IMG/VR virus record: IMGVR_UViG_2974697560_000001
Reading direction: 5' to 3' (one strand)
Length of the DNA: 64,000 nucleotides
DNA from: a virus
Lineage: Duplodnaviria; Heunggongvirae; Uroviricota; Caudoviricetes
In this document: piece after piece, positions 13,310 through 42,023 of the stretch
Position numbering within the stretch: position 1 is the first letter of the stretch
Layout: each line of letters opens with the position of its first letter
The notes under the pieces: model-generated
What the model saw: only the letters and a program-made list of their open reading frames with translations
Databases searched by the model: none
Told to the model about the DNA's origin: nothing
Position numbers and translations under genes: made by a program

Positions 13310-13416
13310 GCTGTTAAAGTAGTAAATGTGGGTCGAACGAAAGTTGGTTATCTTTCAATAATGGTGAATACGCTCCGATAGGGGCTCTCCGACTTTCAAA
13401 CACTTATCCACACAAT

Positions 13417-13487
13417 GCATCGGTAGTTTAATGGTAGAACGAGTGACTTCCAATCATTCAGCGCGGGTTCGATTCCCGCTCGGTGCT
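13417..13487 (+). tRNA. tRNA-Gly (TCC)
   Basis: hand-folded cloverleaf; acceptor GCATCGG/TCGGTGC, D GTTT-AATGGTA-GAAC, anticodon loop CTTCCAA, T-arm GCGGG-TTCGATT-CCCGC. Confidence 0.75.
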
Positions 13488-15000: not shown

Positions 15001-15167
15001 ACTTTTGGGTCGATTGAGACACGGTTATCTTACACAATGGATACTAGGTTCGATTCCTAGGGGTGCTATAAAAGGCGCTCTGTAAAGTCATCTCAGATGT
15101 GTGTGGTAGGATGACATAAGGTACTACACTCTCTCCGTTCTCGCCACTTACCTAAAGGACTTACATT

Positions 15168-15702: not shown

Positions 15703-15779
15703 TGGGGCGTATACCCTCACTCTGATAAAGTGTAGAAAGGTTAATCGGTTACATGTGGGTTCAATTCCCACCGTCCCAA
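15703..15779 (+). tRNA. tRNA-like element; T-arm and acceptor are clear, D/anticodon fold unresolved (possible GAT loop)
   Basis: acceptor TGGGGCG/CGTCCCA, T-arm GTGGG-TTCAATT-CCCAC, CACT-CTGATAA-AGTG hairpin. Confidence 0.3.
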
Positions 15780-17991: not shown

Positions 17992-18168
17992 CTTGTGGGT
18001 CGAAGATGATTGTTTATCTTCAAATCAGCGTGTTGGGGGTTCGAATCCTCCCTGGGGACTTCATTGTCCTCGGTAACTCAATGGCAGAGTAGCTGACATT
18101 GCCCGAATGGGCTAGACGATTGTCACACCTTATCCACATTACAAACAACTACTAACTAAGGAATAACC

Positions 18169-22728: not shown

Positions 22729-22734
22729 AAGCTT

Positions 22735-22806
22735 GCGGGTCGAAAGAGTAAGTCGGTTATCTTCCTTTGAATAAGAAACAGGTAGGTTCGAATCCTACGT
22801 AGCCCA
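22735..22806 (+). tRNA. tRNA-like; T-arm GTAGG-TTCGAAT-CCTAC plus a 9-nt-loop hairpin; acceptor unresolved
   Basis: canonical T-arm, other arms degenerate. Confidence 0.25.
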
Positions 22807-22849
22807 AGGCACGGGTGACTCCGACTCTCACCTATATATCCGCACTAGT

Positions 22850-23617: not shown

Positions 23618-25270
23618 ATGTCAAACGCACTTAACACTGCTGCCAAGGGTCTGAACAAGACTCCTCAGTCTCAGAAGGCTAAGGCAGGTCAGGTAAAGAA
23701 CAACGCTGGTGGATTCGTCTTCCAGGTTTCTGACCAGGCTCGCCTAGAGCGATTCCTGATTCTGGGTGTTGATGGTGGCACATATTACGTCAAGGAGAGC
23801 ACTCACGCTCGTTCCAACGTACAATTCCTCAACGAGATGATTGAGCGAGACGAAGCCTCTGTACTGAACACCATTGTGGACGTGTCCGTCAATGGTCGTG
23901 CATACAAGCAGTCTCCTGCCCTGTTCGCTCTAGCCTCTGTCATTGCCAATGGTAAGGACAAGCAGGCGGTCAAGGCGGTATTCAATCGTGTCGTTCGTAC
24001 AGGCACTCACCTGTATGAGCTTCTGAACTACCTTACTTCAATGAACGTTGGATGGGGTCGTTCAAAGCGAGAGATTGTTGCTTCTTGGTTCGACCGAGAT
24101 GCTGACAAGCTGGCTTACCAGGCGGTCAAGTACCGTTCTCGTAAGTTTGGTGAGCAGACTTGGACGCTCCGAGACGTAATGCGTCTTTCCCACCCACGAG
24201 ATGTGAACACATCTGTTGCAGATTTCGTTCTCGGCAAGCCTCACGATGCTACCGATGACCTTCGGGTTATCGAGGGCTTCAAGAAGATGCAGAGGGCTCA
24301 GTCTGTCGAGGACGTTCACAGCGTTCTCCGTGAGTACGAGATACTTTCATGGGAGACAATCCCAACTCAGTTCCTCAAGGACGTGAGTGTATGGAAGCGA
24401 ATCTTCGCTAACGGACAGCTCCGTGGCCAGGCTCTTGTTCGAAACATCACTCGCCTTGCGCGAATTGGTGCTTTCCAGGACATGCGCTTTGCTGCTGCGT
24501 ATGCAGGACAGCTCACAAATCAGGAGATGATTGTACAGACTCGTCTGCACCCAATCAACTTCCTGAATGCGTCTGTCGTGTACAACGAAGGCCAGATGAA
24601 GACCGTAAGGGACCGCTGGGGCTTCGAGCGCGAGGAGCGTGTAAAGGACTGGACAACTGAGAGTGTTATTGCGGATGCCCTCAATGAGGGATTCCACAAG
24701 GCATTCAAGGCTGTCGAGCCTGCCGGTAAGCGAACGATGCTGGCTCTGGATGTATCAGGCTCCATGAGTGCAAAGGCTAACGGTCTCGACCTTAGCTGTG
24801 CTCAGGTTTCTGCTGCAATGTCTATGGCCATTGCTCGTACCGAGCCTGCTCACATCATCCGTGGATTCACGTCCAATGGATATGGCTGGTCTGGTCGCAA
24901 CAGTGACCTCACCGACCTTGGTATCAGCGCTAAGACAGACCTTGCTACGGCAATGCGTAATGTCCAGCGTCATAACTGGGGCGGTACGGACTGTAGCCTT
25001 CCAATGCGTTGGGCTCTGGACCGTGGAATTGAAGTAGACACGTTCATCATTATCACCGATAATGACACGTGGGCTGGTGAAATCCACCCATTCCAGGCGC
25101 TCAAGGAGTACCGTAAGAAGACTGGCATTCCAGCTCGTCTGGCAGTTCTGGGAGTTCAGGCAACTGAATTCACCATCGCTGACCCAAGCGATGCAGGAAT
25201 GATGGACTTCGTAGGGTTTGACAGCAATGCACCTCGCGTGCTGGCTGACTTCTCCGCAGGTCGCATCTGA
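23618..25270 (+). CDS. rsr: Ro60-related protein (TROVE domain) with C-terminal vWA/MIDAS domain
   Basis: GGFVFQVSDQARLERFLILGVDGGTYYVKE TROVE N-terminus; LALDVSGSM MIDAS; 550 aa. Confidence 0.85.
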   Translation: MSNALNTAAKGLNKTPQSQKAKAGQVKNNAGGFVFQVSDQARLERFLILGVDGGTYYVKESTHARSNVQFLNEMIERDEASVLNTIVDVSVNGRAYKQSPALFALASVIANGKDKQAVKAVFNRVVRTGTHLYELLNYLTSMNVGWGRSKREIVASWFDRDADKLAYQAVKYRSRKFGEQTWTLRDVMRLSHPRDVNTSVADFVLGKPHDATDDLRVIEGFKKMQRAQSVEDVHSVLREYEILSWETIPTQFLKDVSVWKRIFANGQLRGQALVRNITRLARIGAFQDMRFAAAYAGQLTNQEMIVQTRLHPINFLNASVVYNEGQMKTVRDRWGFEREERVKDWTTESVIADALNEGFHKAFKAVEPAGKRTMLALDVSGSMSAKANGLDLSCAQVSAAMSMAIARTEPAHIIRGFTSNGYGWSGRNSDLTDLGISAKTDLATAMRNVQRHNWGGTDCSLPMRWALDRGIEVDTFIIITDNDTWAGEIHPFQALKEYRKKTGIPARLAVLGVQATEFTIADPSDAGMMDFVGFDSNAPRVLADFSAGRI

Positions 25271-27026: not shown

Positions 27027-27308
27027 ATGGCTTATTACCCAATTAACCAGTTCTTCTACGACTCAGAGACTAACAACATCATCGTTCAGTTCGCTGTATA
27101 TACTGAAAAGACTTACGAAACGGCGCAGATGGACGACCCATATGATGTAGTTGAGGCAGAACTCTTCCTGGATGCAGGTAAGTTCAAGATTGGTGAGTAC
27201 CGTCCAGCAGCACTTGATGGTAGTGTAACTCAGGAGTTCATCGGTCGTGACCTAGGTCAGGCACCTAATATAACTCCACCCAATCCAGTTCCAGAAGAAC
27301 CAGCTTGA
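27027..27308 (+). CDS. hypothetical protein
   Basis: ORF track 93 aa; gaggagg RBS. Confidence 0.5.
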   Translation: MAYYPINQFFYDSETNNIIVQFAVYTEKTYETAQMDDPYDVVEAELFLDAGKFKIGEYRPAALDGSVTQEFIGRDLGQAPNITPPNPVPEEPA

Positions 27309-27447: not shown

Positions 27448-27699
27448 GTGCCAGCTAAGATACCAACTCAAATAGAAGCAAGAATAGTAGTAGCCATCCT
27501 TACCGGAATCATTGGCTGCATCTTTGCCAGCTTCTTGATGGTTGGATGTATAACTGAAAGCAATGAAACAAGCAAGATGAAGGCTTGTGTAGCTAAAAGT
27601 ATGGAGTGGGTAAACGCGCCCGGTGGTCCTGAGTGCAGGAAGCCGCTTGACAGACTCCCACAGCCAAGCTACAGTAGTAGTAACGAAGACAAGCAGTGA
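27448..27699 (+). CDS. putative lipoprotein/membrane protein
   Basis: hydrophobic N-terminus with LMVGC lipobox-like motif. Confidence 0.45.
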   Translation: MPAKIPTQIEARIVVAILTGIIGCIFASFLMVGCITESNETSKMKACVAKSMEWVNAPGGPECRKPLDRLPQPSYSSSNEDKQ

Positions 27700-27865: not shown

Positions 27866-27942
27866 GGGTTTGATTGGTATGACGTTACGGAAAGCCGACA
27901 ATGGACCCGTAGCCGCAGAGGGTTCGAATCCCTCCAAATCCA
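27866..27942 (+). tRNA. tRNA-like, 77 nt; no canonical anticodon arm; a TACGG...CCGTA stem encloses 16 nt
   Basis: acceptor GGGTTTG/CAAATCC, T-arm GAGGG-TTCGAAT-CCCTC. Confidence 0.3.
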
Positions 27943-28014
27943 CTTGGTGATAAAGCTCCCCAAGCTGATAGTCCATATCAGCCGGACACTTGGCGGTGAC
28001 GCCCTTCACCTTAT

Positions 28015-28228: not shown

Positions 28229-28302
28229 GCGTCGGTAGCCCAATGGCAGGAGGCACCAGTCTTAGGAACTGGACAGTGTGAGTTCGAGTCTCACCCGGCG
28301 TA
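28229..28302 (+). tRNA. tRNA with anticodon TAG (Leu by anticodon), class-I architecture, second copy
   Basis: acceptor GCGTCGG/CCGGCGT, D GCC-CAATGGCAGGA-GGC, anticodon arm CCAGT-CTTAGGA-ACTGG, T-arm GTGAG-TTCGAGT-CTCAC. Confidence 0.6.
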
Positions 28303-28356
28303 CTTTGATGGTAAACGCGATGCCATCGAATGCACACAGGGTCGCTCCCAGTGTGA

Positions 28357-28477
28357 GGAACGTAGTTTAATGGTAAAACCGTGAAATGCGCTGTCGAACG
28401 AGAAGTGCTGCCGAGCTAAAGGCGGGTCTTCTGCTAGTAGATAACAGAGTAGCAGTTGTCGGTTCGATTCCGACCGT
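28357..28477 (+). tRNA. interrupted tRNA-like gene: 5' half (acceptor + Gly-like D arm) and 3' half (T-arm + acceptor) separated by an insert of about 80 nt
   Basis: AGGAACG-TA-GTTT-AATGGTA-AAAC ... GTCGG-TTCGATT-CCGAC-CGTTCCG; acceptor complementarity 6 of 7. Confidence 0.3.
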
Positions 28478-28624
28478 TCCGCTAGCCTGCGCTAGATGCA
28501 GGAATGTAAGTCGGCAAGGGAGTGTACAATCCCAAACCGCATTTCTCAACGGCCTTGCAAGGGGCATCAAAGCAACAGGGTGAGAGTGTCTTGGCTGTTC
28601 CGACTCATAACTGGAACCTCCACA

Positions 28625-28695
28625 ATCCGTAGTGGTGAAATGGTATCACATGGCCTTGCCAAGGCTAAAGCGCGAGTTCGATTCTCGTCTACGGG
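28625..28695 (+). tRNA. tRNA-Gly (GCC)
   Basis: acceptor TCCGTAG/CTACGGG, D GTGA-AATGGTA-TCAC, anticodon arm TGGCC-TTGCCAA-GGCTA, T-arm GCGAG-TTCGATT-CTCGT. Confidence 0.75.
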
Positions 28696-28710
28696 ACTTG
28701 GGAACTGACA

Positions 28711-28797
28711 TGGAACTGGCTGAGTCATGACCAGCACGCAATGGTGCGATAGCGGCCGATAAACCGTCAATTCTGGGTTCGAATCCCGGCAGTTCCC
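28711..28797 (+). tRNA. tRNA-like, 87 nt, class-II length; anticodon unresolved
   Basis: acceptor GGAACTG/CAGTTCC (exact), D-like GCTG-AGTCATGAC-CAGC, T-arm CTGGG-TTCGAAT-CCCGG. Confidence 0.3.
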
Positions 28798-28803
28798 CCT
28801 AAT

Positions 28804-28876
28804 GCCCTGGTAGCGTAGTGGATAACGCGGCTGTCTTCTAAACAGTTACAGGCAGGTTCGATTCCTGTCCAGGGTA
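28804..28876 (+). tRNA. tRNA-Arg (TCT)
   Basis: acceptor GCCCTGG/CCAGGGT, D GCGT-AGTGGATA-ACGC, anticodon arm GCTGT-CTTCTAA-ACAGT, T-arm GCAGG-TTCGATT-CCTGT. Confidence 0.75.
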
Positions 28877-29308: not shown

Positions 29309-29489
29309 TGATATGCTGGCTAACATACCTGATGTTGAGTTCTTCCTTAAGTGCACATTTTGCCCGGAAGAAGCTGACGGTGACTTGACAGTAGAGCTTG
29401 AACCTGGTATGTTTGTACCAATGCCAATCTGTGAAGATTGTCTGGTAGAACAAGCCAAGAACTTCAATATGATTGACAGTCCTCAATGA
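29298..29489 (+). CDS. hypothetical Cys-containing protein
   Basis: ORF track 63 aa. Confidence 0.4.
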   Translation: MTNFDMLANIPDVEFFLKCTFCPEEADGDLTVELEPGMFVPMPICEDCLVEQAKNFNMIDSPQ

Positions 29490-36425: not shown

Positions 36426-36497
36426 GCATGTAAGCCAGGGATAAGCTAGGCGGGCCTGTAAAGCCCTACCTCGATGGTTCGAATCCGTCTACATGCA
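36426..36497 (+). tRNA. second GTA-anticodon tRNA with a class-I 5-nt variable arm
   Basis: acceptor GCATGTA/TACATGC exact, loop CTGTAAA, T-arm GATGG-TTCGAAT-CCGTC; D and anticodon stems each have a mismatch. Confidence 0.5.
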
Positions 36498-38742: not shown

Positions 38743-38944
38743 CTCATCACCTGGGGATGCCTTGGTTTCGACTGGGGTGGATGACTTTAGTTTGCAGCCT
38801 GACATTGAGGAGATGTCATTAAAAAGCCTCAACCCTATAAATGCCAACTCTAAGTTCGCATTCGCTCTTGCTGCCTGACGGTAGCTGAGCGGGGCTAGTG
38901 GGCGGCCTGGCAACAGAATAGCCCACCACAAACTTTCTTGTAAC

Positions 38945-39018
38945 ACCCCTTGACACATGGCTGTGTATAGACTACTGTTTGAAGCATCAGGACGCGGGTT
39001 CGACTCCCGCCATCTCCA
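38945..39018 (+). tRNA. tRNA-like: T-arm GCGGG-TTCGACT-CCCGC plus a 3' tail, 5' acceptor unresolved
   Basis: orphan T-arm upstream of the next CDS. Confidence 0.2.
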
Positions 39019-39039
39019 CTTCCTATTAAGGAGTAAAAA

Positions 39040-41750: not shown

Positions 41751-41884
41751 GCCGGGGAAGTTCTTTGGTAAGAACAGTCTCTCTATAGTGTTCATTTGAC
41801 TGTGCACGGTCTCTTGACACCTCCTAGTAGCGCTGCTAGGATGACAGAGTAGAAAGGTTGGAGGTTCGATTCCTCCCTCTGGCA
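41751..41884 (+). tRNA. interrupted tRNA-like gene: canonical 5' acceptor + D arm, an insert of about 80 nt containing a promoter-like motif, then T-arm + 3' acceptor
   Basis: GCCGGGG-AA-GTTC-TTTGGTAA-GAAC ... GGAGG-TTCGATT-CCTCC-CTCTGGC; acceptor pairs 7 of 7 with two G-U. Confidence 0.3.
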
Positions 41885-41941
41885 CTTAAGACTTGGCCCC
41901 AAGAGGCAACCGATGGTCACCGGGATGCATACCGCCCATTG

Positions 41942-42023
41942 GACCTTATCTAGGTACCACGTCTATGCAATCGACGGATTGAGCACATAGACAATGGGGT
42001 AGGTTCAAATCCTACTGGGGTCC
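41942..42023 (+). tRNA. tRNA-like, 82 nt: paired acceptor and T-arm, with an internal 7-bp hairpin instead of canonical D/anticodon arms
   Basis: acceptor GACCTTA/TGGGGTC, T-arm GTAGG-TTCAAAT-CCTAC. Confidence 0.25.

What the first reader, a model, noticed from the sequence alone, without database searches (positions are those of the whole stretch)
28357..28477. Interrupted tRNA-like gene: canonical 5' acceptor/D arm and 3' T-arm/acceptor split by an 80-nt insert
AGGAACG-TA-GTTT-AATGGTA-AAAC (almost identical to the D arm of the genuine tRNA-Gly at 13417) is followed about 80 nt later by GTCGG-TTCGATT-CCGAC-CGTTCCG. The 3' tail pairs 6 of 7 with the 5' acceptor. The insert contains GCTAGTAGATAACAGAGTAGCAG, which recurs in a second interrupted locus at 41751-41884. 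This may be an intron-containing or insertion-disrupted tRNA, or two halves of a recombined gene.
Basis: seen in the sequence. Interest (0 to 1): 0.65.

Follow-up and report, generated by a model that had tools for sequence, protein, structure and literature searches.

The report
tRNA-shaped phage RNA lacking an anticodon
This is not a broken or intron-split tRNA but a conserved, tRNA-shaped non-coding RNA of Streptomyces phages whose anticodon arm is replaced by a structured rod, probably a new, tRNA-ordered relative of the Y RNAs that partner the phage's own Ro60 protein.

Summary
The window is Streptomyces phage Samisti12 (cluster BE). At 28355-28482 (+) there is one tRNA-like gene: an acceptor stem, D arm and T arm, with 78 nt where the 17-nt anticodon arm should be.

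It is conserved in at least 83 related phages. In an 18-phage alignment all 24 modelled pairs hold in every sequence, and six pairs show compensatory double changes. The tertiary 15:48 pair also covaries.

The "insert" is a folded rod. It has three short helices, two invariant GAA/AGUA internal loops (loop-E-like) and a tip hairpin that is a different sequence in different phages.

No anticodon exists. ARAGORN's intron mode calls nine different anticodons among the orthologues, so the intron and disrupted-gene readings fail.

Coruscantvirus phages hold an uninterrupted 74-nt orthologue at the same site. Its "anticodon loop" is the 6-nt GUCGAA, the same motif kept inside the long form.

GYCGAA matches the proposed Ro60-binding motif of bacterial Y RNAs (GNCGAAN0-1G). 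The phage's Ro60 gene lies 3.1 kb upstream on the same strand.

Two unrelated Ro60-encoding phage contigs carry tRNA-ordered, insert-bearing tRNA-likes with clear Y-RNA signatures next to Ro60.

Best reading: a non-decoding tRNA mimic, likely a Y-RNA-type Ro60 partner. The partner is unproven.

The parts
28355..28362 (+). 5' strand of the acceptor stem: G-1 (28355) and A1-G7 (28356-28362). The outer part, G-1:C73 / A1.G72 mismatch / G2:C71 / G3:C70, is invariant; the inner three pairs covary.
   Evidence: alignment columns 1-8 with 122-129: 100% paired, 3 pairs with changes on both sides; table.
28363..28380 (+). U8-A9, D arm (GTTT / AATGGTA / AAAC, 28365-28379) and C26.
   Evidence: A15 (or G15 in Warpy/Jay2Jay) covaries with U48 (or C48), the Levitt tertiary pair.
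28381..28398 (+). Rod, descending strand (tRNA body towards the tip): G27-Y28 (paired), GAA no. 1 (28383-28385), A, UG (paired, 28387-28388), CGC, UGUC (paired, 28392-28395), GAA no. 2 (28396-28398). 28393-28400 reads GTCGAACG, which fits GNCGAAN0-1G.
   Evidence: GYCGAA is invariant in 18 phages and in Coruscant/Mandalore. The U-to-C change in G[Y]CGAA is compensated by A-to-G opposite it in BoomerJR/Genie2 and in L281.
28399..28435 (+). Variable tip hairpin (37 nt here; 16-37 nt and at least six unrelated sequences in other phages).
   Evidence: every version folds into a hairpin. Compensatory AGAAG/CUUCU to AGAGA/UCUCU between Samisti12 and Paradiddles.
28436..28453 (+). Rod, ascending strand: AGUA no. 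2 (28436-28439), GAUA (paired, 28440-28443), A, CA (paired, 28445-28446), G, AGUA no. 1 (28448-28451), G-C (paired, 28452-28453).
   Evidence: AGTAGATAWCAGAGTAG is nearly invariant. Each AGUA faces a GAA and is flanked by a Watson-Crick pair, which fits the loop E / sarcin-ricin consensus (my own knowledge; the 3-D fold was not tested).
28454..28482 (+). Variable loop AGUU (28454-28457), T arm GTCGG-TTCGATT-CCGAC (28458-28474), 3' acceptor strand CGTTCCG (28475-28481) and C73 (28482).
   Evidence: T stem columns 105-109 with 117-121; one pair changes C-G to G-C in 6 sequences.
28333..28355 (+). Conserved hairpin directly upstream (CACACAGGG-UCGCU-CCCAGUGUG). The loop region GGUCGCUCC is invariant and the stem covaries. 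It is preceded by the conserved (A/G)AAUGCA. Also present in Coruscant and Mandalore, so it travels with the element.
23618..25270 (+). Ro60/Rsr orthologue (550 aa, TROVE plus Ro60 vWA domains); the candidate protein partner, 3085 nt upstream on the same strand.

Best explanation
The locus is a dedicated gene for a non-decoding, tRNA-shaped RNA (a tRNA mimic). It is neither an interrupted tRNA nor a pseudogene.

Shown:
- It keeps the parts of a tRNA that build the L-shape and that processing enzymes recognise: a 7-bp acceptor stem plus a G-1:C73 pair, the D arm, the T arm with UUCGAUU, and a covarying 15:48 tertiary pair.
- The anticodon arm is replaced by a 73-nt rod (28381-28453). The rod is made of short helices, two invariant GAA/AGUA internal loops and a freely varying tip hairpin.
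- The only sequence at the 'anticodon' position that is shared between this long form and the 74-nt short form of Coruscantvirus phages is GYCGAA.

Inferred:
- It is transcribed with the neighbouring tRNAs and released by RNase P at the 5' end and by 3' trimming. It may receive CCA, as Mycobacterium smegmatis YrlA does.
- It works by binding protein rather than by decoding.

Favoured partner, not proven: the phage's own Ro60 (Rsr). On this reading the RNA is a Y-RNA-like molecule in tRNA gene order, that is, a non-permuted counterpart of YrlA with an open acceptor stem. It would use its GYCGAA-containing rod to hold Ro60 and its tRNA-like body to reach tRNA-handling or RNA-decay/repair factors during infection.
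For: Structure and conservation:
- At least 83 phage records hold the element, at identities down to 70%.
- In an 18-sequence alignment, 24 pairs are 100% paired, 6 pairs have changes on both sides, and 0 of 500 shuffles reach the observed covariation score. Partners slid by 1-3 columns give only 30-59% pairing.
- The Levitt pair switches from A15:U48 to G15:C48 in Warpy; Jay2Jay has the identical sequence.
- The Y41-R88 pair inside GYCGAA is compensated in two hairpin backgrounds.
- The tip hairpin is replaced by at least 6 unrelated hairpins whose lengths differ by non-multiples of 3. That excludes a conserved ORF.

No anticodon.

tRNA-likeness: Rfam tRNA model 35.7 bits with a 74-nt insertion.

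Orthologous short form: Coruscant and Mandalore have a 6-bp stem with a GUCGAA loop at the same site, behind the same upstream hairpin.

Transcription context: promoter-like TTGACA-17-TACAGT at 27647, and no terminator on the + strand before 29385.

Link to Ro60 and Y RNAs:
- The Ro60 gene (TROVE and vWA_Ro60 domains) is 3.1 kb upstream on the same strand.
- Chen et al. 2014 (PMC4201824) report that YrlA RNAs carry GNCGAAN0-1G plus tRNA-like D and T arms, lie within 4 kb of Ro60 on the same strand and lack an anticodon loop, and that M. smegmatis YrlA is cut by RNase P and gains CCA.
- 28393-28400 is GTCGAACG.
- In two unrelated Ro60-encoding phage contigs (L343, L339), tandem tRNA-ordered tRNA-likes with 42-70-nt inserts (ARAGORN's estimate; 62-79 nt by Rfam) sit 0.2-2.7 kb upstream of Ro60. 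In L343 the inserts carry clear Y-RNA signatures (GCCGAAUG or GCCGGAG, then GUUAUC, a V region and the T arm). In L339 they carry only the YUAY-type (A)UUAUC motif and no GNCGAA match.
- Rfam's YrlA model reads across the junction of two such units.
Against: Binding to Ro60 is not shown by anything here.

- The motif is short. GNCGAAN0-1G occurs 63 times on the + strand of the window, so a match inside a 74-nt insert has roughly a 7% chance.
- The phage already has three canonical-order Y RNAs (13328-13412, 17995-18138, 22733-22845). They share 5' GYGGGUCGAANG and 3' UAUCCRC termini, which this element lacks.
- The motif lies on the strand running away from the tRNA body. That is the opposite of YrlA and of the L343 units.
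- There is no (G)GUUAUC/YUAY motif.
- Rfam's YrlA model does not match the element.
- In the long form the G-Y-C of the motif is base-paired and the GAA faces AGUA. Conservation of GAA could therefore reflect a loop-E-type fold for some other protein.
- Cluster BK phage Stigma has Ro60 and canonical Y RNAs but no copy of this element within 9 kb on either side of its Ro60 gene.
- Expression, the RNA ends and CCA addition are untested.
Confidence: 0.55

Rival explanations
1. A tRNA mimic with a partner other than Ro60. The rod, with its two loop-E / sarcin-ricin-like GAA/AGUA modules, would be a platform for another phage or host protein. Candidates include a translation factor or ribosomal protein (these phages are annotated with uL24 and L7/L12 C-terminal domain proteins), an RNA-repair enzyme (RNA ligase, polynucleotide kinase or CCA-adding enzyme encoded nearby), or a host tRNA-targeting defence nuclease that it would soak up as an uncleavable decoy.
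For: - Both GAA/AGUA modules are invariant in 18 phages, and each is flanked by the Watson-Crick pair that the loop E consensus requires.
- The element lacks the termini shared by the phage's canonical Y RNAs.
- RNA ligase, polynucleotide kinase and tRNA nucleotidyltransferase are annotated in the same arm of the related genome Mildred21.
- Ribosomal-protein-like genes are reported for Riptide (PMC12509530).
- T4 likewise encodes two stable RNAs of unknown role inside its tRNA cluster (PMC3014915).
Against: - The short form in Coruscant and Mandalore has no AGUA/GAA modules yet keeps GUCGAA. The loop-E modules are therefore not the family's core.
- A decoy for an anticodon nuclease would be expected to imitate a real 7-nt anticodon loop.
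- No candidate protein is tied to the element by co-occurrence.
Confidence: 0.25
2. The tRNA-like unit is only one module of a larger composite transcript: upstream hairpin, tRNA-like unit and the 143-nt structured RNA downstream. Its main role would be as a processing handle, with RNase P and RNase Z cuts defining the ends of the neighbouring RNA (as for MALAT1/mascRNA), or as the 5' domain of a single RNA of about 300 nt.
For: - The downstream RNA starts 2 nt after C73 with the invariant UAGCCUG.
- It is itself strongly structured: 30 predicted pairs, 19 with compensatory changes.
- It follows the element in all 18 long-form phages examined.
- The upstream hairpin is conserved even in Coruscant.
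Against: - In Coruscant the tRNA-like unit is followed directly by tRNA-Gly, with no downstream structured RNA. The unit therefore exists without it.
- Ordinary flanking tRNAs would already supply processing sites.
- A mere handle would not need an invariant rod or GYCGAA.
Confidence: 0.12
3. An intron-containing tRNA that is spliced to a decoding tRNA (the first reader's leading idea, and the basis of the tRNA-Thr annotation in the Sushi23 record and the tRNA-Tyr annotation in Mildred21).
For: - ARAGORN's intron mode reports tRNA-Thr(ggt) with a 37-nt intron.
- The Sushi23 record annotates a 127-nt tRNA-Thr at this site.
- The Mildred21 record annotates tRNA-Tyr at this site.
Against: - ARAGORN's model has a poor anticodon stem.
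- The called identity changes between orthologues: nine identities, and no call in 3 of 18.
- The conserved blocks that flank the variable hairpin do not form a 5-bp stem with a 7-nt loop.
- No intron family matches, and 78 nt is too short for a group I intron.
- The uninterrupted relative has a 6-nt loop with no anticodon.
- The phage already encodes tRNA-Thr(ggt) and tRNA-Thr(tgt).
Confidence: 0.03
4. A decaying tRNA pseudogene disrupted by an insertion, or two halves left by recombination.
For: The phage carries several other odd tRNA-like remnants: orphan T arms at 15044, 27918, 28773, 36473, 41999 and 56104.
Against: - The insert is more conserved than the acceptor stem.
- 100% of the modelled pairs are kept, with compensatory changes in both the body and the insert.
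- The element is retained in at least 83 phages of two genera and in three uncultivated contigs.
Confidence: 0.02

Closest known systems
YrlA-type bacterial and phage Y RNAs (Rfam RF02553; Chen et al. 2014, PMC4201824; Wang et al. 2018, bioRxiv 10.1101/312249)
   Same: - A tRNA-like L-shaped body with D arm, T arm and an acceptor-type stem.
- No anticodon loop; a rod extends from the anticodon-stem position.
- A GNCGAAN0-1G match in that rod.
- Encoded within 4 kb of a Ro60 gene on the same strand, in an actinophage tRNA/RNA-repair region.
- M. smegmatis YrlA ends up with an open, CCA-tailed acceptor stem after RNase P cleavage.
   Different: - The gene order is that of a tRNA (acceptor 5' strand, D arm, rod, T arm, acceptor 3' strand). 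The RNA ends are in the acceptor stem and the rod is closed by a hairpin. YrlA is the circular permutation: a closed acceptor loop, with the ends in the Ro60-binding stem.
- The motif is on the opposite strand of the rod.
- There is no YUAY/GUUAUC motif.
- The two GAA/AGUA modules are not a YrlA feature.
- Rfam's YrlA model does not match.
tRNA-ordered Y-like units next to Ro60 in IMG/VR contigs 3300033146_002139 (L343) and 3300017527_000512 (L339).
   Same: - tRNA gene order with a perfect 7-8-bp open acceptor stem, D arm and T arm.
- An insert of 42-70 nt (ARAGORN's estimate; 62-79 nt by Rfam) in place of the anticodon arm, with a tip hairpin.
- Located next to Ro60 on the same strand.
- The D arm of the unit at L343:7609 (GUUU-AAUUGGUA-GAAC) is nearly the same as in this element.
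   Different: - Their inserts carry the (G)GUUAUC-type motif, a V region and the T arm on the strand that leads into the T arm; the L343 units also carry the Ro60-type motif, while the L339 units have no GNCGAA match.
- They have no GAA/AGUA modules.
- There is no sequence homology to this element's rod: my model scores L343 at only 40.5 bits, which is the level of ordinary tRNAs.
Canonical tRNA (Rfam RF00005)
   Same: Acceptor stem, U8-A9, D arm, T arm with UUCGAUU, the 15:48 pair, a position inside a tRNA array, and a score above the Rfam gathering threshold in a local search.
   Different: No anticodon stem-loop (73 nt in its place), an invariant A1.G72 mismatch together with a G-1:C73 pair, and no detection by ARAGORN in default mode.
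T4 RNAC and RNAD (species 1 and 2 RNAs)
   Same: Small stable RNAs encoded inside a phage tRNA gene cluster, with biological roles still unknown (PMC3014915). From my own memory, they have tRNA-like ends and are processed with the tRNAs.
   Different: Unrelated phage and host. No sequence or structure comparison was made here.
Loop E / sarcin-ricin (bulged-G) motif
   Same: Two copies of 5'-AGUA-3' opposite 5'-GAA-3', each with the flanking Watson-Crick pair on the side the consensus requires (Y28-R42 and C-G).
   Different: The match is by sequence pattern only. The three-dimensional fold was not tested. The motif is absent from the short form.

Membership tests
tRNA (RF00005) | 7-bp acceptor stem, D arm and T arm with a T-loop consensus; score at or above the Rfam gathering threshold | tested here: met
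   35.7 bits against a threshold of 29 in a local search. The stems covary. The element was not listed in the whole-window gathering scan.
tRNA (RF00005) | Tertiary Levitt pair 15:48 | tested here: met
   A15:U48 in 17 of the 18 aligned sequences and G15:C48 in Warpy. Jay2Jay, which was not in that alignment, has the same sequence as Warpy.
tRNA (RF00005) | 5-bp anticodon stem with a 7-nt loop, U33 and a conserved anticodon | tested here: not met
   73 nt of rod occupy that position. ARAGORN in default mode finds nothing. The short-form orthologue has a 6-nt loop, GUCGAA.
Intron-containing tRNA | Removing the intron yields the same canonical anticodon arm in all orthologues | tested here: not met
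   Nine different anticodons are called, and none in 3 of 18 orthologues.
Intron-containing tRNA | A recognisable intron type (group I ribozyme core, or an archaeal bulge-helix-bulge) | tested here: not met
   No intron family matches at E-value up to 10. The insert forms a closed rod supported by covariation.
YrlA Y RNA (RF02553) | GNCGAAN0-1G motif | tested here: met
   GTCGAACG at 28393-28400. GYCGAA is invariant in 18 long forms and 2 short forms. Specificity is low: the motif occurs 63 times on the + strand of the window.
YrlA Y RNA (RF02553) | Encoded within 4 kb of a Ro60/TROVE gene on the same strand | tested here: met
   The Ro60 gene is at 23618-25270 (+). The element starts at 28355, 3085 nt downstream.
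YrlA Y RNA (RF02553) | tRNA-like D and T arms without an anticodon loop | tested here: met
YrlA Y RNA (RF02553) | Permuted order: the 5'/3' ends form the Ro60-binding stem and the acceptor-like stem is closed by a loop | tested here: not met
   The order is acceptor 5' strand, D arm, rod, T arm, acceptor 3' strand. The canonical permuted form exists elsewhere in the window, at 18009-18123, where Rfam YrlA scores 33.1 bits.
YrlA Y RNA (RF02553) | A match to the family covariance model; a YUAY motif at the start of the V loop | tested here: not met
   There is no YrlA match over the element, and no GUUAUC/YUAY motif between the GNCGAA motif and the T arm.
YrlA Y RNA (RF02553) | Physical binding to Ro60/Rsr | not testable with these tools
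   This needs immunoprecipitation or a gel-shift assay.
tmRNA | A tRNA-like domain combined with an internal tag reading frame and pseudoknots | tested here: not met
   The real tmRNA is at 38753-39021. There is no tmRNA match over the element. Indels in the tip that are not multiples of 3 exclude a conserved reading frame.
Loop E / sarcin-ricin motif | 5'-AGUA-3' opposite 5'-GAA-3' with a closing Watson-Crick pair | tested here: met
   Two copies, invariant in 18 sequences. This is a sequence pattern only.
Loop E / sarcin-ricin motif | Bulged-G S-turn geometry | not testable with these tools
   This needs chemical probing or a solved structure.

The most novel reading that the evidence does not exclude
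Phages carry a previously unrecognised class of 'unpermuted' Y RNAs. These would be tRNA-ordered molecules with an open acceptor stem that can be processed by RNase P, tailed with CCA and perhaps even charged with an amino acid, and whose anticodon arm has been turned into a Ro60-binding rod. This BE-phage element (long form), the Coruscant short form with a GUCGAA hexaloop, and the tandem units beside Ro60 in L343 and L339 would all be members. They would also be the missing evolutionary link showing that the permuted YrlA arose by reading across two tandem tRNA-like units, as Wang et al. 2018 speculated.
Probability: 0.3. Interest if true: 0.75.

Novelty: new variant of a known kind. Interest (0 to 1): 0.62.

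Why it matters
Annotation. Phage annotators currently skip this locus or mislabel it: tRNA-Thr in Sushi23, tRNA-Tyr in Mildred21, tRNA-OTHER in Coruscant. Recognising it as a conserved non-decoding tRNA mimic corrects tRNA counts and codon-usage arguments for more than 80 genomes.

Biology. It adds a tRNA-ordered, open-acceptor design to the small set of tRNA mimics (tmRNA, viral tRNA-like structures, YrlA). It also gives a concrete, testable candidate for how phage Ro60 is connected to the tRNA and RNA-repair machinery that these large actinophages carry.

Evolution. The tandem units found beside Ro60 in unrelated phages, across which the YrlA model can be read, make the proposed origin of permuted Y RNAs from dimeric tRNAs directly examinable.

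Tried and rejected
- **Intron search.** ARAGORN in intron mode on the window and on 18 orthologues gave inconsistent anticodons. Rejected.
- **Rfam.** At relaxed thresholds over 28300-28810 there is nothing besides tRNA.
- **Host or bacterial copy.** A scan of one genome per species with AGTAGATAWCAGAGTAG gave 77 hits, all in unrelated, mostly AT-rich genomes and none in Streptomyces.
- **Metagenomes.** A scan with GYGAAATGCNNTGYCGAA gave 120 loci. None of the 100 tested matched the covariance model.
- **Distribution.** The covariance model R1 found no full-length relative outside Boydwoodruffvirinae-type phages. It was searched against Stigma (cluster BK), mycobacteriophage Nappy, and 13 of the more divergent Ro60 loci.
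- **Second locus as a paralogue.** 41751-41884 shares only CTAGTAG and ACAGAGTAG in Samisti12, and the latter is not conserved in its orthologues. I treat it as a separate family.
- **Protein-coding explanation.** Short ORFs at 28386-28583 (+) and 28367-28570 (-), and a 'hypothetical protein' annotated in Bmoc, overlap the element. Rejected because the tip hairpin varies by non-multiples of 3.
- **Histidine-tRNA mimicry.** This was suggested by G-1:C73. The phage's own tRNA-His has G-1 with A73, and Mandalore has U73, so I did not pursue it.
- **Long-range pairing.** Pairing between the upstream AAAUGC and the downstream GCAUUU is not conserved in Wofford or Elmer.
- **Short form elsewhere.** A search for short forms (a GNCGAA loop followed by a T arm) beside Ro60 in other lineages found only Coruscant.
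Full report
**Source and setting**

The window is identical to Streptomyces phage Samisti12 (MF347639; cluster BE, Stanwilliamsviridae, Boydwoodruffvirinae). Window position 28000 corresponds to record position 87894. ARAGORN finds 42 tRNAs and a tmRNA on the + strand, and Rfam agrees. The finding lies between tRNA-Leu (28229-28303) and tRNA-Gly (28626-28697).

**The observation**

- AGGAACG-TA-GTTT-AATGGTA-AAAC at 28356-28379.
- GTCGG-TTCGATT-CCGAC-CGTTCCG at 28458-28481, with 78 nt between the two.
- The acceptor strands pair at 6 of 7 positions (A1.G72 is a mismatch), and G28355 pairs with C28482.

ARAGORN in default mode does not call it. In intron mode it calls tRNA-Thr(ggt) with a 37-nt intron and a poor anticodon stem. 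Rfam's tRNA model, searched locally, scores it 35.7 bits (threshold 29), with 74 nt inserted in place of the anticodon arm. The second locus, 41751-41884, scores 32.8 bits with a 72-nt insertion.

Only CTAGTAG...ACAGAGTAG does. The ACAGAGTAG part is not conserved in orthologues of the second locus, which is a different tRNA-like family.

**Conservation and structure**

blastn finds the element in 83 Streptomyces phage records, at identities down to 70%. Most records leave it unannotated. Sushi23 calls it a 127-nt tRNA-Thr and Mildred21 a tRNA-Tyr.

I fetched 18 diverse orthologues and aligned them. RNAalifold and an explicit pair count support 24 pairs. Every cell is a standard pair, 6 pairs have changes on both sides, no shuffle out of 500 reaches the observed covariation score, and sliding the partners by 1-3 columns drops pairing to 30-59%.

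- The acceptor stem covaries at its three inner pairs. The outer G-1:C73 / A1.G72 / G2:C71 / G3:C70 is invariant.
- The tertiary 15:48 pair switches from A:U to G:C in Warpy and Jay2Jay.

The body is therefore a real tRNA-like L-shape.

**The "insert" is a folded rod**

In window coordinates:
- G28381-C28453 and U28382-G28452 are paired. The second pair becomes U-A or C-G in other phages.
- GAA (28383-85) faces AGUA (28448-51).
- U28387-A28446 and G28388-C28445 are paired.
- A small asymmetric loop follows.
- UGUC (28392-95) pairs with GAUA (28440-43). Its third pair changes from U-A to C-G in BoomerJR/Genie2 and independently in an IMG/VR contig.
- A second GAA (28396-98) faces a second AGUA (28436-39).
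- A tip hairpin (28399-28435) closes the rod.

Both GAA/AGUA modules are invariant in 18 phages. With their flanking Watson-Crick pairs they fit the loop E / sarcin-ricin consensus. That consensus is my own knowledge, and the fold was not tested.

The tip is a hairpin in every phage, but with at least six unrelated sequences of 16-37 nt. This rules out a conserved reading frame and marks the tip as a spacer.

**No anticodon, no intron**

Across the 18 orthologues ARAGORN's intron mode returns nine different identities (Thr, Arg-gcg, Phe, Ser, Arg-tct, Asn, His, Pro, Cys) and nothing in three of them. No intron family matches. The intron, pseudogene and recombined-halves readings are therefore rejected.

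**An uninterrupted relative exists, but it is not a normal tRNA either**

In Coruscant and Mandalore (genus Coruscantvirus, same subfamily) the same conserved upstream hairpin (AAAUGCA...GGGUCGCUCCC...) is followed by a 74-nt tRNA-like RNA:
- It has the same G-1/A1.G72 acceptor design.
- Its "anticodon arm" is a 6-bp stem with the 6-nt loop GUCGAA.
- ARAGORN reports it as "tRNA-??? (cg)", and the Coruscant record annotates it as tRNA-OTHER.

 blastn of this short form lands on the site of the element in the BE phages. GUCGAA is thus the one feature at the anticodon position that is shared by the short and long forms. The long form is an expansion around it.

**Link to Ro60 and Y RNAs**

The window encodes a Ro60/Rsr orthologue at 23618-25270 (+), with TROVE and Ro60-vWA domains. 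It lies 3085 nt upstream of the element.

Chen et al. 2014 (PMC4201824) showed that bacterial and phage YrlA Y RNAs:
- lie within 4 kb of Ro60 on the same strand;
- carry a proposed Ro60-binding motif, GNCGAAN0-1G;
- contain a tRNA-like domain (D arm, T arm, acceptor-like stem) without an anticodon loop.

They also showed that M. smegmatis YrlA is cut by RNase P and gains CCA. Wang et al. 2018 describe YrlA as resembling a circularly permuted tRNA.

The element's 28393-28400 is GTCGAACG. The motif alone is weak evidence, because it occurs 63 times on the + strand of the window.

The window also holds three canonical-order Y RNAs:
- 17995-18138, YrlA-like, Rfam 33.1 bits;
- 13328-13412;
- 22733-22845.

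All three share 5' GYGGGUCGAANG and 3' UAUCCRC, which the element lacks.

**Independent support for tRNA-ordered Y-like RNAs**

I took Ro60 loci from IMG/VR. Two unrelated contigs carry tandem tRNA-ordered tRNA-likes with inserts of 42-70 nt by ARAGORN's estimate (62-79 nt by Rfam), directly upstream of Ro60:
- L343: 7315-7460, 7468-7594 and 7609-7731. Rfam tRNA scores are 46.1, 36.0 and 44.7 bits.
- L339: 9545-9666 and 9670-9800.

In L343 the inserts show the full Y-RNA signature: a tip hairpin, GCCGAAUG or GCCGGAG, GUUAUC, a V region and the T arm. In L339 they show only the tip hairpin and the (A)UUAUC motif, with no GNCGAA match. Rfam's YrlA model reads across the junction of L343 units 1 and 2 (29.3 bits). 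YrlA order is therefore the permutation of such units.

I found no paper in the held library that describes tRNA-ordered Y RNAs.

**Distribution**

My covariance model finds full-length copies (112-151 bits) only in Samistivirus and Karimacvirus phages and in three uncultivated contigs. It finds none in:
- Stigma (cluster BK) or mycobacteriophage Nappy;
- Coruscant, where the best hit is the short form at 45 bits;
- other Ro60 loci;
- 100 metagenome loci.

A genome scan found no host copy.

**Context**

Promoter-like sites with a perfect TTGACA lie at 27305 and 27647. There is no + strand terminator-like site before the next promoter-like site at 29385, so co-transcription with the tRNAs is plausible.

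Immediately upstream is a covarying hairpin (28333-28355) with the invariant loop region GGUCGCUCC. Immediately downstream (28483-28625) is a second structured RNA with 30 predicted pairs, 19 of them with compensatory changes, ending in a hairpin whose loop contains CUCAUAA. Coruscant lacks this downstream RNA.

**Verdict**

What is established:
- The element is a conserved, non-decoding tRNA mimic.
- The "insert" is a functional rod built around GYCGAA.

What is not established:
- Its partner. Ro60 is the best-supported candidate (about 0.35-0.45 on its own).
- Other protein partners, or a role within a composite transcript, remain open.

I found no prior description of this tRNA-ordered design, so I rate it a new variant of a known kind (tRNA-like Y-type ncRNA).

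Noticed in passing
window 28483-28625 (+): A second conserved structured RNA begins 2 nt after the element with the invariant UAGCCUG. RNAalifold predicts 30 pairs, 19 of them with compensatory changes. It has a multi-branch domain (28485 to about 28581) and then a hairpin (28597-28617) whose 11-nt loop holds the conserved CUCAUAA, which looks like a tRNA-Met anticodon loop. There is no Rfam match. Coruscant lacks it.
   Followed up: partly
window 28555-28564 (+), within the downstream RNA: The palindrome CCUUGCAAGG changes in concert to CCUAGCUAGG in other phages (U to A together with A to U). This suggests either pairing in a very tight hairpin or an intermolecular/dimer contact.
   Followed up: no
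window 28310-28355 (+): Two covarying hairpins lie upstream of the element, separated by the conserved (A/G)AAUGCA. The second (28333-28355) has the invariant loop region GGUCGCUCC and is also kept in Coruscant and Mandalore. Its GUCGCU loop resembles the GUCGAA at the anticodon position.
   Followed up: partly
window 17995-18138, 13328-13412, 22733-22845 (+): Three unannotated canonical-order Y RNAs share 5' GYGGGUCGAANG...(G)GUUAUC and 3' UAUCCRC. The first is a full YrlA type with T arm, closed acceptor stem and D arm (Rfam YrlA 33.1 bits, below the family threshold of 69). The second is a YrlB-like hairpin. The third has a T arm only and lies about 800 nt upstream of Ro60.
   Followed up: partly
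window 41751-41884 and 41895-42022 (+): Two more long tRNA-like RNAs (133 and 128 nt) have acceptor, D and T arms and central inserts of about 70 nt. The first has the invariant hairpin UCUAGUAGCGCUGCUAGR plus GUGCAC and CUUGAC blocks in six phages. The second is annotated tRNA-OTHER in Mildred21. Neither is related to the rod of the element studied here.
   Followed up: partly
window 28701-28796, 27866-27941, 36426-36496, 15703-15779, 15044, 56104 (+): There are further orphan T arms and degenerate tRNA-like units outside the ARAGORN calls. Examples: 28712-28796, with a perfect 7-bp acceptor but no D arm (a weak Rfam mascRNA-type match), and 27866-27945, a weak tmRNA-type match at 30.3 bits. 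The phage carries many non-canonical tRNA-shaped RNAs.
   Followed up: no
L343 7315-7731 and L339 9545-9800 (IMG/VR contigs 3300033146_002139 and 3300017527_000512): In two unrelated Ro60-encoding phages there are tandem tRNA-ordered tRNA-likes with inserts just upstream of Ro60. The L343 inserts carry the Y-RNA motifs (GCCGAAUG or GCCGGAG, plus GUUAUC); the L339 inserts have only an (A)UUAUC motif. Rfam's YrlA model aligns across the junction between two L343 units, which fits an origin of permuted YrlA from dimeric tRNA-like units.
   Followed up: partly
window, all tRNA 3' ends (e.g. 27447, 28090, 28697): Most of the phage tRNAs encode only N73-C74 rather than a full CCA. Related records annotate a phage tRNA nucleotidyltransferase, an RNA ligase and a polynucleotide kinase, which together make up an RNA-repair and tRNA-maturation kit around the Ro60 gene.
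   Followed up: no
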